Source of the DNA: the human T2T-CHM13v2.0 reference genome, Homo sapiens
DNA length: 64,000 nucleotides
Assembly (NCBI RefSeq): GCF_009914755.1
Contig: NC_060941.1
Strand: one strand, 5' to 3'
Shown here: positions 39,592 through 56,611 of the stretch, piece after piece
Layout of the letters: each line of letters opens with the position of its first letter
Numbering within the stretch: the stretch's first letter is position 1
Notes under the pieces: generated by a model
The model's database searches: none
The model's input: the letters and a program-made list of their open reading frames with translations, nothing else
What the model was told of the DNA's origin: nothing
Program-made: the position numbers and the translations under genes

Positions 39592-39753
<162 letters not shown>

Positions 39754-41765: not shown

Positions 41766-44179
41766 GATTGCACCTGTGAGAGACAGAGCCTCACTCTATC
41801 ACCCAGGCTAGAATGCAGCGGCATCATCATACCTCACTACAGCCTCTACCTTCTGGGTTCAAGTAATCCCCCAACCTCAGCCTCCCAAATAGCTAAGACT
41901 ACAGGCATGTACCACCATGCCTGGCTAATTTTTAAATTTTTTAGAAACAGAGTCCTACTATGTTGCCCAGGCTGTTCTTGATCTCCCAGCTCTAGAGATC
42001 TTCCCACCTTGGCCTCCCAAAGCCCTGGGATTACAGGCGTGAGCCACCACATCCAGCCTCGAATGTATCTTTTTAACCAGCAGCTGAGACAAAAGTTCTA
42101 AAAGCCCAGACTTTAAATGGAAAATGCTGGGCTCTTAAGAAATAATGGAGAATCATAAAGTAAAGAAGAATGCAAAATATGGCATCAAAGCAGTTATTCT
42201 ATCAATGGGAAATTGTGACCAGCTGAAGAGAGAAGGAGGTTGGAGTGTGTGTGACTAGAATTTAAAGGTTGTCTGGGTCCCTAAGTCAGAGTTAGCACCT
42301 GATCTCCCATTCCTGAGCTCCAATCATGGTTGGAGATTGAGGGCAACATTATTGATACCCCTGGAAATTCCAGGTAGGTTGAGAGGAAATTTAAGAACAG
42401 CAGGCACTTACACTTCATTTTCTAGGTGTAGCTCAGAGACTACAAGCTTCATAGAGAAGTGCTAAATCCAACATGGCACTAAAGAGAAAGAGTAGCAGCT
42501 ATAGAAGGTAGGGTGTAGGTAGATGGGCCTGAAGATACTCCCTTTCACTCCTGTGGCCAGAGGAAAGATGATGAGTATTCCTAAATACCTGTGTGTAAAG
42601 GACAGTCGGTGTGCAGAGATGATGACTGTGAAAGTTCTGGGAGTACCCCCAAGAAGACACCTGGGTTAGGACAAGGATAACTATGGACATAAATAGCAAA
42701 TACCAAAATAAAACTTCCAAATGACTCAATGAGATGAAGTACATACACCACAGTCACAGTCAACAAGTATTGTGGCTGGCATTGAGCTAGACTCTCCTTT
42801 CTCTGATGGCAGGACTCTATATAAGCACCCCCACCCCCCAAAATATGGGCGAAAGATATGAACACACAATTCATGGAATCACTATATACTCAATAGGTGA
42901 CCAAAAATAGTTTTTAATGATAATACCTATCACTGATATGAATAGAAGAAAAACATTTCTCAAACATTCCTGGTGAAAATTTAATAGTTGTATCTTTGCA
43001 AAGCATTCTGGATATATCTACTTAAATGAAAAATGCATACGTGCTTCAGCCAGGCAAGCCATTCCTGAAATTTTTATTCCACAGAAATAAAAGTATTAGT
43101 AAATTAAAAAATACACATGCAAAGAAAATTCTTGATGCATTGTTTATAAATGAAGAAAAAGAGAGAAGTTAATGAAATATTTACTATATAGGGGAATGCT
43201 TTAAGCATCCCTATTTCCTGAGATACAACAATATTAAAATTAGGCCAATTAATAACCCTAGAAAGGGTTATTAATTGTGTGCAAGTGAAAGGAAGAGTCA
43301 CATATCTCTCACTTTAAATCAAAAGCTAGAAATGATTAATCTTAGTAAGGAAGGCATGTTGAAAGCCAAGAGGTGGCTGAAAGCTGGGCCCCTTGCTCCA
43401 GTTAGCCAAGTTGTGAATGCAAGGAAAAGTTCTTGAAGGAAATTAAGAGCACTACTCCCACAAAGACACAAGTCATAAGAAAGCAAACAGCCTTATTTCT
43501 GAGAGAAGTCAATGCCTGGCTTCAAAGCTTCAAAGGCCTAGCAGACTCTCTTCTTAGAGGCTAGTGCAGCTGGTGACTTTCAGTTGAAACCAGTGCTCAT
43601 TGACCATTCCAAAAATCCTAGCCCTTAAGAATTATGCCAAATCTACTCTGCCTGTGCTCTATAAAGGAAACAGCAAAGCCTAGATAACAGTAGATATGTT
43701 TGTGGCATGGTTTACTGAATATTTTAATCACACTGTGGAGACCTACTGCTCAGAAAAAAAGATTCCTTTCAAAATATTACTGTTCATTGAGATGCGCCTG
43801 GTTAACCAAGAGCTCTGATGGAGATGTACAAGGAGATGAATGTTGTTTTCATTCCTAATAACACAATATCCGTTCTGCAGCCCATGGTCAAGGAGTCAGT
43901 CATTTTGACGTTCAAGTCTTGTTACTTAAGAAATACATTTCATAAGGCTATAGCTTCCATAGATAGTGATTCCTTTGATGGATCTGGGCAAAGCAAATTG
44001 AAAATCTTTTATAAATAATTCACCATTCTAGGTGCTCTTGCCACTGTTCCATCTGTGATTGAGCATCCTTTCTGCAGAAAGTAAAGATAGCCTTGCTGAG
44101 AGATCTTTTGTATCCATGCTGATTTTTCTTCTTGGCACCAATTATCTATTTCTAACAATTTTGGTATTTCTAACAATTT

Positions 44180-44197
44180 TGGTGGCCCATATGGGGA
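44180..44197 (+). other. Retroviral primer-binding site for tRNA-Ile
   Basis: TGGTGGCCCATATGGGGA is a CpG-decayed form of TGGTGGCCCGTACGGGGA, complementary to the tRNA-Ile(AAT) 3' end. Confidence 0.8.
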
Positions 44198-46157
44198 TAC
44201 ATTCTCCTCTGGTGTTGGTCTCTGGTCCTTTCTCATGAGGAGGCGCCCCACCGCCTCTTGTGGTGGCCTCAGGGGTAAGGGACCGAGACCCACCTGGTGT
44301 GACGAATAAACCCAAACTCTCAGCAATGCAGAAAGAAACCAGCCAGCAACCTGGGGTAAAGGATCCTCACATACTGCGGTGCCGAGTCTGTGCACAGACC
44401 ATACAAGGAGAAGCCGCAGGAGCCGTCTTTTAGCACAGCTACCACCCTTAGAATTTCCGGTAAACCAACACCATCCTGAGAACCACATCCTCACCAAAGG
44501 GTGGAAAGAAGGGAAACTCAAGCTAGCCTGGGAAGGACCCTACCTCGTGCTGCTAACCACCAAGTACGGTGGAAAGGGGATGGACACATCACACCCGAGT
44601 CAAGCAAGTGCCGTTATCATCAGAATCATGGGCCATTGTTCCTGGATCAAGCCCTACCAAATTAAAGCTAAGAAAAGCTTCATCTTTCCATCTTTTCCTT
44701 TCCTTTCCTTCCCTCTAACTATCCCTCATCTTGTCATCAGTGTAACCAAATCAGATTCACCACAGGTTATAACATTTGATGCTTGCCTTGTTATACCTTG
44801 TGGAGGTTTGCAAAGCCAGAGACAACTCTCTACTTCAGAAAAATACCTCTGCCACTCCAGGGAGACCACTGCCACCCCTGCATCTTGCTTGTGGTGGAGG
44901 TACCAAGATACCCCAAGTTGGAATTTATATGCTCAGTGGGTAGATGTCATCTGGATCAAGGCTGGACCTCCGAGGAGGGATGTGCCGACTTAAAGCCATA
45001 CCTCCACCTTACTAAAGGGATTGCCCCTGCCCCAATTGTCAATCCCACCAGTGTAACCCAGTGCTTATATCCATTACTATTCCTACCACTAGCAACTCTA
45101 ACCCCACTTTAGAGCGTTTCTATGGTTTAGGATCAGAGGTCACTGGAAAGGATCCTTCTTTAAGATGTGCTTTGTTCTCCCTTCTCCACCTCCTACAACT
45201 GCCCTTTTCCCAAATCTATGAAATCAAGCCACACCTCACCTCATGCCAAATGACAAAAGCAAAGTCTCAGTAGTAGAAATAGGAGACCTAAGGCAAACCA
45301 GTGCCACTGAAACAGGGTATAAAGATGTAAATGCTTGGTTAGAATGTATTAAATATTCCATTTGCACTTTAAGCAAAAGTGACTGTTATGCTTGTGTGCA
45401 CAGTAGGCCAGAGGCCCAGGTTGTCCCCTTTCCACTAGGATGGTCCTCAAATCAAGTAGACATGGAGTGCATGGTAGCTCTTTCTCAAGATTCCACCGCC
45501 TGGAATAATGAATTGTGCCAAGCTCTTTCTCTGCTATTTCCTGAAGTTCAACATCCTGCAGGTCAGCCCCCAAGGGCCATCCAGCCTCCATCTTCCAAAA
45601 CCAATTTTACCTCGTTTCTCCAATGACAAGGGGAAAAATTTGGCGTTCCTTGGAGACTTAACAGGATGCAGTGCAGTCAGGCACCTCCATGATCTGACCT
45701 ATCAGTCCACCCTTATCCATCCCCAAGCAGTTGTATGGTGGTATTATGGAGAACCTTTACTGGACACTCTGCCAAATAATTAGAGTGGTACTTATGCTCT
45801 AGTTCAGATGGCTACCCTTTTTACCCTGGCATTTCATCAACCAGAAAAAGAAGAAAAAGTAGCCTCAATTCTTACCTCTTTAACAGCTATAGTAAGTATA
45901 CTCCTTAGGTGCTATGTTGTACCATACATCCAGAAGTTAATCAAAACAACTAAGCCAACACATATTAAGTGAGTTTGAAGAGGAAACTATAAAGTGAAAG
46001 AGGAAGAAATTGTAGAAAGTAGAAAAGTTCCTCTTCAAAGCTTATCTTGGTTTAAAAATAAAATAATAGACACTAGGAATAATAGCTCCTTACTCTAAAG
46101 CCTCCTATCAACTATTAGTTCTTACAGTTTAGCCCAGTTAGTTGCTTTGGCTTACTC

Positions 46158-46187
46158 AGGCATGTCTGGACAGGTCCAGGCAGGTCT
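46158..46187 (+). promoter_or_regulatory. p53-type response element in the LTR10-like U3
   Basis: AGGCATGTCT-GGACAGGTCC-AGGCAGGTCT: three unspaced RRRCWWGYYY-like decamers; the first is perfect, the other two have a CAGG core. Confidence 0.55.
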
Positions 46188-47356
46188 TAGCTCATAGCTT
46201 ATGCCCCTTCCTTATTTGGAAATGTTTTTGCTTCCTTAAACCTTTCGTAAGCAACTTCCTCTCATTCTCTGTTCTTCCCTGCACTTACCTATTTAGGGAA
46301 GTTTTAGGCTATTAGCAAATCGGGTATCAGTTTAAGAGTGTGAAGTCCAGCTCCAGCCAATGGATGCAGGACCCAACAGTAAGGACGACCCAAATGTGTA
46401 AGGGATAAATATGTCGGCTTTTCCTTTGTTTAGGTGTTCTCTTGCCATTGTTCCATCTGTGATTGAGCACCCTTTCTGCAGAAAGTAAAGATTGCCTTAC
46501 TGACAGATCAAAAGAAAGGAAGGAAGGAAGGAAGAAAGGAAAGAAGGAAGGAAGGAAGGAAGGAAGGAAGGAAGGAAATAATTCACCATTCTAGATGCCA
46601 TTAAGAACATTTGTGATTCATGGGAGGAGGTCAAAATATCAACATTAACAGGAGTTTGAGAGATTTCAACTCTCATGGATGACTTTGAGAGCTTTAAGAC
46701 TTCAGTAGACAAAATAGCTGCAGATATAGTGGAAATAGCAAGAAAACTAGAATTATAAATGGAGCCTGCAGATGTGACTGAATTGCTGTAATCTCATGAT
46801 AAAACTTGAATGCATGACAAATTTTTTCTAATGGATAAGCAAAGAAAATAGTTTCTTGATATGGAATTTACCCCCGGTGAAGACATTAGCATTGTTGAAA
46901 TGACAACAAAGGATTTAGATTATTACATAAACTTAGTTGATAAAGCAGCAAGTAGGGTTTGAAAGAATTGACTCCAATTTTGAAAGAAGTTCTACTGTAG
47001 ATAAAATGCTATCAAACAGCATCACATGCTACAGAGAAATCCTTCATTAAAGGAAGAGTCAACAGATGCAGCAAACTTCATTGTTGTCTTATTTTAAGAA
47101 ATTGCCACAGCACACACCCACCTTCAGCAACCACAACCCTAATCAGTCAGTAGCCAACAACATTAAGGTACAACCCTCCACCAGCAAAACAACTATGGCT
47201 TGCTGAAGGCACAGATGATCATTAGCATTTTTTAGCAATAAAGTGTTTTTAAATTCAGGTGTGTACTTTTTTTAGGCAATTAATCTATGGTACACTTAAG
47301 AGACTACAGTTTAAGCTATTGAGCACTTAATAGACTACAGTATAGTATAAACATAA

Positions 47357-56461: not shown

Positions 56462-56611
<150 letters not shown>

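What the first reader, a model, noticed from the sequence alone, without database searches (positions are those of the whole stretch)
44013..46594. HERV-I env mRNA captured by LINE-1: a spliced retroviral transcript fixed as a processed retrocopy
Seen: the element starts in R with no 5' U3. The equivalent position in the 3' LTR (46434) is ~29 nt after a TATA-like GATAAATA (46404), i.e. the expected cap site. It ends 20 nt after AGTAAA (46484-46489), exactly where U5 begins in the 5' copy. An A/GGAA tail follows, and a perfect 19-bp TSD flanks the whole, against the 4-6 bp expected from integrase. About 245 nt after the PBS-Ile, the leader joins directly to the last codons of integrase (junction ~44425), with all of gag/pro and most of pol absent. 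Known: L1-made processed ERV copies are described mainly for HERV-W. Inference: this is a fossil cDNA of the HERV-I subgenomic env mRNA, recording its start site, splice junction and poly(A) site, and implying germ-line expression.
Basis: partly seen in the sequence, partly recalled or inferred. Interest (0 to 1): 0.8.

Follow-up and report, generated by a model that had tools for sequence, protein, structure and literature searches.

The report
L1-made retrocopy of spliced HERV-I/IP env mRNA
An ancient endogenous-retrovirus envelope messenger RNA, already spliced and polyadenylated, was copied into an intron of EFCAB5 by the LINE-1 machinery, so this fossil preserves where that virus started, spliced and ended its env transcript; the mechanism is known from other human retrovirus families but seems unreported for this one.

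Summary
Window 44032-46509 is an RNA-shaped copy of a gammaretrovirus-like HERV-I/HERVIP element.

- **Ends.** It starts at the first base of R, 30 nt after a TATA-like box kept in 10 of 10 related LTRs. It ends at the last base of R, 20 nt after AGTAAA.
- **L1 marks.** A 66-nt A/(AAGG)n tail follows. A perfect 19-bp target-site duplication flanks the whole element. In 14 of 14 paralogous copies of the host Tigger-like transposon that 19-mer occurs once, with the two flanks contiguous.
- **Splice junction.** The junction at 44425|44426 equals a canonical GT...AG splice. Related proviruses read ..GGAGCCG|GTAAAGTAC at the donor (GTAAAG kept in 5 of 7). The subgroup closest to the window reads polypyrimidine..AAAAG|TCTTTTAGC at the acceptor (6 of 15). 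The intron is about 5.5 kb in a full-length relative.
- **Identity.** The acceptor lies about 325 nt after the integrase core. The env start follows about 200 nt later, and its product matches the solved EnvP(b)1 receptor-binding domain (E 8.6e-19). The primer-binding site fits tRNA-Ile.
- **Second case.** A 5'-truncated L1-type retrocopy of the same LTR family lies at C2:129.39 Mb.
- **Prior art.** Published precedents are HERV-W, HERV-H and spliced HML-2 rec mRNA. My searches found none for HERV-I/IP.

Verdict: a real, new member of a known kind, of moderate interest.

The parts
44013..44031 (+). 5' copy of the target-site duplication (AAATAATTCACCATTCTAG)
   Evidence: Identical 19-mer at 46576-46594. 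It occurs once, between contiguous flanks, in 14 of 14 paralogous host-repeat copies.
44032..44105 (+). 5' R region. Its first base is the inferred transcription start; no U3 lies upstream.
   Evidence: 68 of 74 identical to 46436-46509. It starts 30 nt after the T of the conserved TATA-like box as seen in the 3' LTR.
44106..44175 (+). U5, ending ..TCTAACA, with an 18-nt internal repeat that is a family feature
   Evidence: Colinear with the U5 of L022, L023, L026 and L002. TRF repeat at 44147-44183.
44180..44197 (+). Primer-binding site complementary to the 3' end of tRNA-Ile(AAT), with two CpG-type transitions
   Evidence: 18-mer located. A 15-mer differing at the two CpG positions lies on the 3' end of a tRNA-Ile(AAT) gene found by ARAGORN.
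44032..44425 (+). Exon 1 of the env mRNA (R-U5-PBS-leader), ending at the splice donor
   Evidence: Leader homology in 5 proviruses stops at 44423-44425. Those copies continue with GTAAAGTAC.
44426..44718 (+). Start of exon 2: remnant of the C-terminal part of integrase (3' end of pol), frameshifted
   Evidence: 31 pol-end hits start here. In the full-length relative L028 the homologous point lies about 325 nt after a Pfam rve domain (E 2.8e-14). ORF pieces are listed.
44628..45972 (+). env remnant: ATG at 44628, signal peptide, SU, CYAC at 45384, RKRR at 45843, then a short hydrophobic tail. It is broken by stops and frameshifts, and no TM-ectodomain motifs were found.
   Evidence: PDB 6w5y_A, EnvP(b)1 receptor-binding domain, E 8.6e-19 on the translation of about 44724-44903. 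ORFs, motif scan. Colinear with 6 of 6 compared proviruses in 45054-46010.
46011..46435 (+). U3 of the 3' LTR, starting TGTAGAAAG after a purine-rich tract. It contains the TATA-like GATAAATA at 46404-46411.
   Evidence: Same start as the 5' LTR of the C8:49.47 Mb provirus. 22 LTR-only genome hits at 89-93% identity begin at 46005-46011.
46436..46509 (+). 3' R, with the poly(A) signal AGTAAA at 46484-46489 and cleavage after 46509
   Evidence: A second retrocopy of the family is polyadenylated 15 nt after the same AGTAAA.
46510..46575 (+). Degenerated poly(A) tail, now an A/(AAGG)n microsatellite
   Evidence: TRF finds period 4, 16.5 copies at 46512-46577.
46576..46594 (+). 3' copy of the target-site duplication
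43650..44012 (+). Left part of the host repeat, a pogo/Tigger-like DNA transposon. It continues at 46595 onward.
   Evidence: 3883 first-look candidates in the genome; the 40 scored gave 39 hits elsewhere at 82-85% identity plus the locus itself. ORF 43806-44018 hits Pfam DDE_1, E 1e-7. The two flanks are contiguous in 14 of 14 paralogs.

Best explanation
A provirus of the HERV-I/HERVIP group (gammaretrovirus-like, tRNA-Ile primer site) was transcribed from its 5' LTR in a germ-line or early-embryo cell. The RNA was spliced from the leader donor to the env acceptor inside the integrase-coding end of pol, removing about 5.5 kb. It was cleaved and polyadenylated 20 nt after the AGTAAA of the 3' LTR. 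LINE-1 proteins then used this mRNA in trans. The endonuclease nicked a Tigger-like transposon in what is now an EFCAB5 intron, and the poly(A) tail primed reverse transcription at the nick. The full-length cDNA was fixed with a 19-bp target-site duplication.

Shown here: the anatomy (R start, R end, tail, TSD), the single-copy state of the target, the exact GT/AG equivalence of the junction, and the env and integrase identity.

Inferred: L1 as the enzyme, the germ-line setting, and an age of tens of millions of years.
For: (1) The ends are those of an RNA, not of a provirus. There is no 5' U3 and no 3' U5, and R is 74 nt at both ends.
(2) The start lies 30 nt after the T of a GATAAATA box kept in 10 of 10 related LTRs.
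(3) The 3' end lies 20 nt after AGTAAA and is followed by a 66-nt A-rich tail.
(4) The TSD is 19 of 19 identical. In 14 of 14 paralogous host-repeat copies the 19-mer occurs once with the flanks contiguous. Both window copies share the locus-specific AAATAA where paralogs read AAAGGA or AAAGAA.
(5) The junction reads GGAGCCG|TCTTTTAGC. Proviruses read ..GGAGCCG|GTAAAGTAC at the donor; GTAAAG is kept in 5 of 7 loci and mutated to ATAAAG or TTAAAG in 2. At the acceptor 6 of 15 loci read a pyrimidine-rich tract then ..AAAAG|TCTTTTAGC, and these 6 are the closest to the window's exon 2 (83-87% against 74-80%).
(6) The junction is found only at this locus among the 40 best-scoring hits of each of two genome searches.
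(7) Layout is as in gammaretroviruses. Pfam rve lies upstream of the acceptor in relative L028. The env ATG follows 203 nt after the junction. The SU N-terminus matches the EnvP(b)1 RBD at E 8.6e-19.
(8) An independent 5'-truncated retrocopy of the same LTR family lies at C2:129389652-682, with a poly(A) run starting 15 nt after AGTAAA and a 14-15-bp TSD.
Against: - The L1 cleavage site is only a loose match to the usual top-strand TT|AAAA (recalled). Here it is AT|AAAT, read.
- In 8 of 15 related loci the acceptor reads AAAGG|TCTTTT. A canonical splice there would leave one more G than the window has. Exactness therefore depends on the source being of the AAAAG|T type, as its nearest relatives are.
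- No near-identical source provirus was found. The best matches are 86% for the leader, 85-87% for exon 2 and 93% for the LTR.
- Transcription start and poly(A) use are read from the fossil itself; no RNA data were examined.
- The age rests on 6 differences in 74 nt.
Confidence: 0.9

Rival explanations
1. The splice-shaped deletion arose in an earlier retroviral cycle: a spliced env RNA was packaged, reverse transcribed and integrated as a gag-pol-less provirus. L1 later copied an unspliced transcript of that deleted provirus.
For: The locus records only the final RNA, so it cannot say when the intron was lost. Deletion variants did spread in this family: 13 of 16 other env-bearing loci lack 44710-45053.
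Against: No copy with LTRs and this junction turned up among the best 40 hits of two genome searches. This account needs an extra step for the same outcome.
Confidence: 0.05
2. It is an ordinary integrase-made provirus that later lost its 5' U3, its 3' U5 and gag-pol through three separate deletions.
For: Internally deleted proviruses are common in this family. Donor-to-acceptor distances of about 0.6-5.5 kb are seen between paired hits.
Against: Three deletions would have to end exactly at the R start, the R end and the GT/AG pair. A 19-bp duplication of a once-single target (14 of 14 paralogs) and an A-rich tail exactly at the poly(A) site are not made by integrase.
Confidence: 0.02
3. The env cDNA was captured at a chromosome break without L1 endonuclease, either by endonuclease-independent insertion or by repair capture of a cDNA.
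For: The nick site AT|AAAT is not a textbook L1 endonuclease site.
Against: Endonuclease-independent insertions typically lack TSDs and often lack tails or carry target deletions (recalled, not tested here). This locus has a clean 19-bp TSD, an intact target and a long tail.
Confidence: 0.03

Closest known systems
L1-retrotransposed spliced HERV-K(HML-2) rec mRNAs, ERVK-30 (2q32.1) and ERVK-31 (5q15)
   Same: A spliced retroviral mRNA copied by L1. [quoted passage not shown]
   Different: Those are betaretrovirus-like, derive from the multiply spliced accessory-gene mRNA, and one is 5'-truncated by about 250 bp. Here the family is gammaretrovirus-like HERV-I/IP, the RNA is the singly spliced env mRNA, and the copy is full length from cap site to poly(A) site.
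HERV-W processed pseudogenes (Pavlicek et al. 2002; Grandi and Tramontano 2017)
   Same: R-to-R structure, no 5' U3 and no 3' U5, poly(A) tail and long TSDs made by L1.
   Different: As I recall, the W copies are numerous and derive from unspliced genomic RNA. The 2002 paper was not held, so this was not checked. [quoted passage not shown] Here I found only two events for the family, one of them spliced.
L1 retrocopy of the co-opted ARTenvV env gene in Hippotraginae (PMC9604959)
   Same: An intronless copy of a spliced env-containing mRNA with a 14-bp TSD, an L1 target site and an A run (passages read).
   Different: That parent is a domesticated host gene with an open reading frame. Here the parent was an ordinary, already env-defective provirus, and the copy is a pseudogene.
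Mtv proviruses with the rem intron removed (PMC11998498)
   Same: A retroviral insertion carrying a splice-shaped deletion. [quoted passage not shown]
   Different: Those retain provirus-like LTRs and are explicitly not retrotransposed cDNAs. The window element has RNA-shaped ends and L1 hallmarks.

Membership tests
L1-mediated processed retrocopy (target-primed reverse transcription in trans) | Target-site duplication of roughly 7-20 bp made from a once-single target | tested here: met
   19 of 19 identical. The 19-mer is single with contiguous flanks in 14 of 14 paralogs.
L1-mediated processed retrocopy (target-primed reverse transcription in trans) | Poly(A) tail directly at the mRNA cleavage site, downstream of a poly(A) signal | tested here: met
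   AGTAAA at 46484-46489, end of R at 46509, A/(AAGG)n tail at 46510-46575.
L1-mediated processed retrocopy (target-primed reverse transcription in trans) | Intron removed exactly at GT...AG boundaries of the parent | tested here: met
   Donor CCG|GTAAAG (GTAAAG kept in 5 of 7 loci). Acceptor AAAAG|TCTTTT in 6 of 15 loci, which are the nearest relatives; 8 of 15 read AAAGG|T.
L1-mediated processed retrocopy (target-primed reverse transcription in trans) | Insertion at an L1 endonuclease-type site (top strand TT|AAAA; consensus recalled) | tested here: inconclusive
   The top strand reads ..TTTTAT|AAATAA, which I count as 4 of 6 positions of the recalled consensus.
L1-mediated processed retrocopy (target-primed reverse transcription in trans) | 5' end at the parent's transcription start (or 5'-truncated) | tested here: met
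   The first base is 30 nt downstream of the T of the conserved GATAAATA box. There is no direct RNA evidence for the start site.
HERV-I / HERVIP group (gammaretrovirus-like class I HERV) | Primer-binding site complementary to tRNA-Ile | tested here: met
   The PBS at 44180-44197 differs by two CpG-type transitions from a 15-mer that lies on the 3' end of a tRNA-Ile(AAT) gene.
HERV-I / HERVIP group (gammaretrovirus-like class I HERV) | env related to HERVIP-type env | tested here: met
   EnvP(b)1 RBD (PDB 6w5y_A), E 8.6e-19. PMC4724089 states that the ERVPB1 envelope clusters with HERVIP Env (passage read). That EnvP(b)1 and ERVPB1 are the same gene is my recall.
HERV-I / HERVIP group (gammaretrovirus-like class I HERV) | LTR classified as an LTR10 subfamily and internal part as HERVI or HERVIP10 by Dfam/Repbase | not testable with these tools
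   No repeat library is on hand.
Integrase-made provirus or solo LTR | Complete U3-R-U5 LTRs at both ends and a 4-6-bp TSD | tested here: not met
   The 5' end starts in R, the 3' end stops in R, and the TSD is 19 bp.

The most novel reading that the evidence does not exclude
Unlike ordinary retrocopies, an ERV mRNA carries a complete U3 (promoter and enhancer) in its 3' LTR, so L1 here may have delivered a working LTR10-type regulatory module into an EFCAB5 intron. RefSeq marks an enhancer at 45662-46873, which covers the whole U3-R. If that activity comes from the U3, this locus would show L1 acting as a second dispersal route for ERV enhancers. It would also be the only known fossil that fixes the start, splice and poly(A) sites of the HERV-I/IP env mRNA.
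Probability: 0.3. Interest if true: 0.45.

Novelty: new member of a known kind. Interest (0 to 1): 0.35.

Why it matters
It gives a base-exact record of how an extinct primate gammaretrovirus expressed env. The record comprises the cap site 30 nt after the TATA-like box, a 394-nt first exon, the donor and acceptor, and the poly(A) site. No RNA from the living virus can ever be obtained.

It adds the HERV-I/IP group to the short list of HERV families with documented L1 trans-mobilisation (W, H, HML-2). It is one of very few spliced retroviral mRNAs fixed in a genome.

It implies that env mRNA of this family and active L1 met in germ-line or early-embryo cells.

Practically, it warns annotators that this 'truncated provirus' is a retrocopy. 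It also preserves an env receptor-binding-domain segment that only 1 of 16 other env-bearing loci scored still has.

Tried and rejected
- **Pfam on window pieces.** Six window env/integrase ORF pieces gave no retroviral family, at E<=0.01 or at E<=10, where only two chance-level hits appeared.
- **PDB search, second env piece.** The ORF at 45222-45626 gave nothing at E<=10.
- **A '1.4-kb deletion' in env.** The apparent deletion relative to the C8:49.47 Mb provirus is not one. Five other proviruses are colinear with the window there, and the extra DNA in C8 starts like an unrelated LTR. Naming it LTR12-like is my recall only.
- **A second intron.** The 345-bp segment 44710-45053 that most proviruses lack has no GT/AG edges on either strand, so this was rejected.
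- **C23:148.10 Mb (L057).** It has an A run right after the donor, but it is a more distant ordinary provirus (71% identity), not a retrocopy.
- **C14:64.06 Mb.** This pattern hit has no similarity to the element.
- **PBS sampling.** Of 29 other loci fetched with the PBS 18-mer, only 4 resemble this element (L062, L064, L079, L085). They could not be used to enlarge the LTR and donor sample.
- **Not available.** Pavlicek et al. 2002 (PMC155283) is not held.
Full report
**1. What is at the coordinates**

- AAATAATTCACCATTCTAG occurs at 44013-44031 and again at 46576-46594, 19 of 19 identical.
- Directly inside the left copy, 44032-44105 matches 46436-46509 without gaps, 68 of 74 identical.
- After 44105 the 5' copy continues as TTTTGTATCC. 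This stretch is colinear with the U5 of related LTRs.
- After 46509 the 3' copy continues as AAAAGAAAGGAAGG.... TRF calls it an (AAGG)n array of 16.5 units at 46512-46577.
- AGTAAA sits at 46484-46489, 20 nt before the break.

**2. The LTR anatomy makes these ends RNA ends**
- The 3' LTR begins at 46011 with TGTAGAAAG, after a purine-rich tract. The 5' LTR of a full-length relative begins with the same words against unrelated flank (C8:49.47 Mb, locus L005).
- 22 LTR-only genome hits at 89-93% identity begin at window 46005-46011.
- So U3 is 46011-46435 and R is 46436-46509. U5 is 44106-44175 and ends ..TCTAACA.
- The element has no U3 on the left and no U5 on the right.
- GGGATAAATA is kept in 10 of 10 related LTRs. 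The element's first base (G of GTGCTCT) lies 30 nt after the T of TAAATA, which is the usual TATA-to-start distance (established knowledge).
That is the only coordinate I would change.

**3. The duplication is a real target-site duplication**
- The flanks belong to a high-copy repeat. One search found 3883 first-look candidates; the 40 scored gave 39 hits elsewhere at 82-85% identity plus the locus itself.
- Its ORF at 43806-44018 hits Pfam DDE_1 at E 1e-7. That fits a pogo/Tigger-like DNA transposon; the subfamily name 'Tigger1' was not tested.
- In 14 of 14 paralogous copies fetched, the left and right flanks are contiguous and the 19-mer occurs once, typically as AAAGGATTCACCATTCTAG followed by ATGCCATTAAG.
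- Both window copies share the locus-specific AAATAA where the paralogs read AAAGGA or AAAGAA. They are therefore copies of one another, not of the repeat family.
- The nick site on the top strand is ..TTTTAT|AAATAA, only a loose match to the L1 endonuclease preference (TT|AAAA, recalled).

**4. The internal junction is a splice**
- BLAST of 44032-44700 against the whole genome gave 41 matches (40 of 703 candidates scored).
  - The locus itself spans the junction.
  - 5 leader hits end at query 392-394.
  - 4 more distant leader hits end at query 343.
  - 31 hits start at query 394-395.
- A junction-centred query (44340-44510) gave the same picture: 1 spanning hit (self), 3 ending at the junction and 36 starting there (40 of 242 scored).
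- Donor side, 7 loci examined:
  - L002, L004 and L056 continue ..GGAGCCG|GTAAAGTAC.
  - L014 reads ..CTG|GTAAAG and L057 reads ..CCA|GTAAAG.
  - L003 has ATAAAG and L005 has TTAAAG.
  - GTAAAG is thus kept in 5 of 7.
- Acceptor side, 15 distinct loci examined. All have a pyrimidine-rich stretch upstream.
  - 6 read ..AAAAG|TCTTTTAGC or ..ACAAG|TCTTTTAGC (L006, L007, L008, L011, L018, L020).
  - 8 read ..AAAGG|TCTTTT or ..AGAGG|TCTTTT.
  - 1 reads ..AAATG|TCTTTT.
- The 6 AG|T loci are the closest to the window's exon 2 (83-87% identity over the first 90 nt, against 74-80% for the AGG type).
- The window reads GGAGCCG|TCTTTTAGC, which is exactly exon 1 plus exon 2 for a GT...AG intron of the AG|T type.
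- With an AGG-type source one extra G would be expected. I count that as the one soft spot.
- In the C8:49.47 Mb provirus the donor and acceptor homologues lie about 5.53 kb apart (coordinates).

**5. What lies downstream is the end of pol, then env**
- In L028 a Pfam rve domain (E 2.8e-14, above the curated cut-off) ends about 325 nt before the acceptor homologue.
- In the window a frameshifted integrase C-terminal remnant runs to a stop at 44716-44718. That puts the acceptor about 97 codons, not the 'last codons', before the end of pol.
- An ATG at 44628 opens MGHCSW..., a hydrophobic stretch, then HLVISVTKSDSPQVITFDACLVIPCGG.... This matches residues 2-64 of the solved EnvP(b)1 receptor-binding domain (PDB 6w5y_A, E 8.6e-19).
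- Further on there is a CYAC at 45384 and an RKRR at 45843. Only about 40 codons follow before the purine-rich tract.
- No immunosuppressive-domain-like or CX6CC motif was found in the three forward frames (the motifs are recalled).
- The window is colinear in 45054-46010 with 6 of 6 compared proviruses. I infer that the missing TM ectodomain was already a property of the source lineage.
- env is now broken into pieces in three frames.

**6. Family**
- The PBS at 44180-44197 differs by two CpG-type transitions from a 15-mer that occurs at 14 places in the genome.
- Of the two places fetched, one is the 3' end of a tRNA-Ile(AAT) gene by ARAGORN. In the other my cut removed the gene's start, and ARAGORN found nothing.
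- PMC4724089 states that the ERVPB1 envelope clusters with HERVIP Env, and that the HERVI/HERVIP distinction is problematic (passages read).
- PMC466953 describes LTR10A-G (n = 2331) as the LTRs of HERV-I, integrated in anthropoids about 30 million years ago (passage read).
- I could not name the LTR subfamily because no repeat library is on hand.

**7. Age (rough)**
- The two R copies differ at 6 of 74 positions.
- The two LTRs of the C8:49.47 Mb relative differ at 51 of 555.
- Both are of the order expected for an event tens of millions of years old. The first figure has a wide error.
- A perfect 19-bp TSD is not at odds with this: at about 8% pairwise divergence the chance of no difference in 19 nt is about 0.2 (my arithmetic).

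**8. A second event**
- A pattern for 'R end plus A run' found one more locus, C2:129389652-682, minus strand.
- It holds about 350 bp of U3-R ending 15 nt after AGTAAA, then 14 A. It is flanked by (A)GAAATTGACACTTC on both sides.
- It is a 5'-truncated L1-type retrocopy of a transcript of the same LTR family. It shows independently that this AGTAAA is used and that L1 acted on this family more than once.
- The pattern was narrow, so two is a lower bound.

**9. Prior knowledge**
- HERV-W processed pseudogenes are the classic case. The abstract of PMC5537654 calls W the sole group specifically mobilised by L1.
- PMC3590776 and PMC4351823 describe two L1 retrocopies of spliced HML-2 rec mRNA and cite HERV-H and HERV-W precedents (passages read).
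- PMC9604959 describes an L1 retrocopy of a spliced co-opted env gene in antelopes.
- PMC11998498 states that spliced retroviral insertions are rare.
- Searches for HERVIP10 with 'processed pseudogene', HERVIP with L1-mediated retrotransposition and HERV-I/RTVL-I with splice sites or env mRNA returned no paper describing such a copy for this family.
- Supplements of bioRxiv preprints, and the 2002 Genome Research paper, could not be seen. Either could list this locus.

**10. Verdict**

The finding is real and correctly interpreted. It is a full-length L1-made retrocopy of the singly spliced env mRNA of a HERV-I/IP provirus, and so a new member of a known kind.

RefSeq's enhancer feature (45662-46873, from the hub's annotation) covers the delivered U3-R. 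Whether the U3 is responsible is untested.

Noticed in passing
window 44710-45053: This 345-bp stretch encodes part of the env receptor-binding domain (EnvP(b)1 match). Among 16 other env-bearing loci scored, 13 lack it (hits resume at query 395-398), 2 resume only at query 590-592, and only C8:49.48 Mb keeps it. The edges are not splice-like. A deletion variant evidently made most copies of this family.
   Followed up: partly
L028:2606-4011 (G000:C8:49480014-49481419): The otherwise most complete relative carries about 1.4 kb of extra DNA inside env, at the homologue of window 45741-45748, with an 8-nt overlap at the edges. It looks like a secondary insertion of an unrelated LTR. 'LTR12-like' is my recall only.
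   Followed up: no
G000:C2:129389300-129389700 (L049, minus strand): A second, 5'-truncated L1-type retrocopy of the same LTR family: part of U3 plus R, 14 A starting 15 nt after AGTAAA, and a 14-15-bp TSD GAAATTGACACTTC.
   Followed up: yes
window 44147-44183: An 18-nt tandem repeat (TATTTCTAACAATTTTGG, two copies) at the end of U5 repeats the LTR terminus and the spacer. It is shared by L022, L023, L026 and L002 but not by L005. It is therefore an old family feature, not a local slip.
   Followed up: partly
window 44180-44197 and genome-wide: The PBS 18-mer has 204 genome matches at up to 2 mismatches, against 14 for the reversed control. Of 29 other loci fetched, only 4 resemble this element. 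Other repeat families evidently carry the same tRNA-Ile-type primer site.
   Followed up: partly
window 45662-46873: The RefSeq enhancer feature (hub annotation) covers the end of env, the whole U3-R, the tail and about 280 bp of the Tigger-like flank. LTR10 elements are reported as enhancers in colorectal cancer and trophoblast (PMC466953, passages read; PMC10113160, search listing only).
   Followed up: no
window 44013-46594 relative to EFCAB5: The retrocopy lies in sense orientation in the EFCAB5 intron between the exons at 39592-39747 and 56462-56561. It brings a splice acceptor-derived sequence and an AGTAAA signal, but no annotated exon overlaps it.
   Followed up: no
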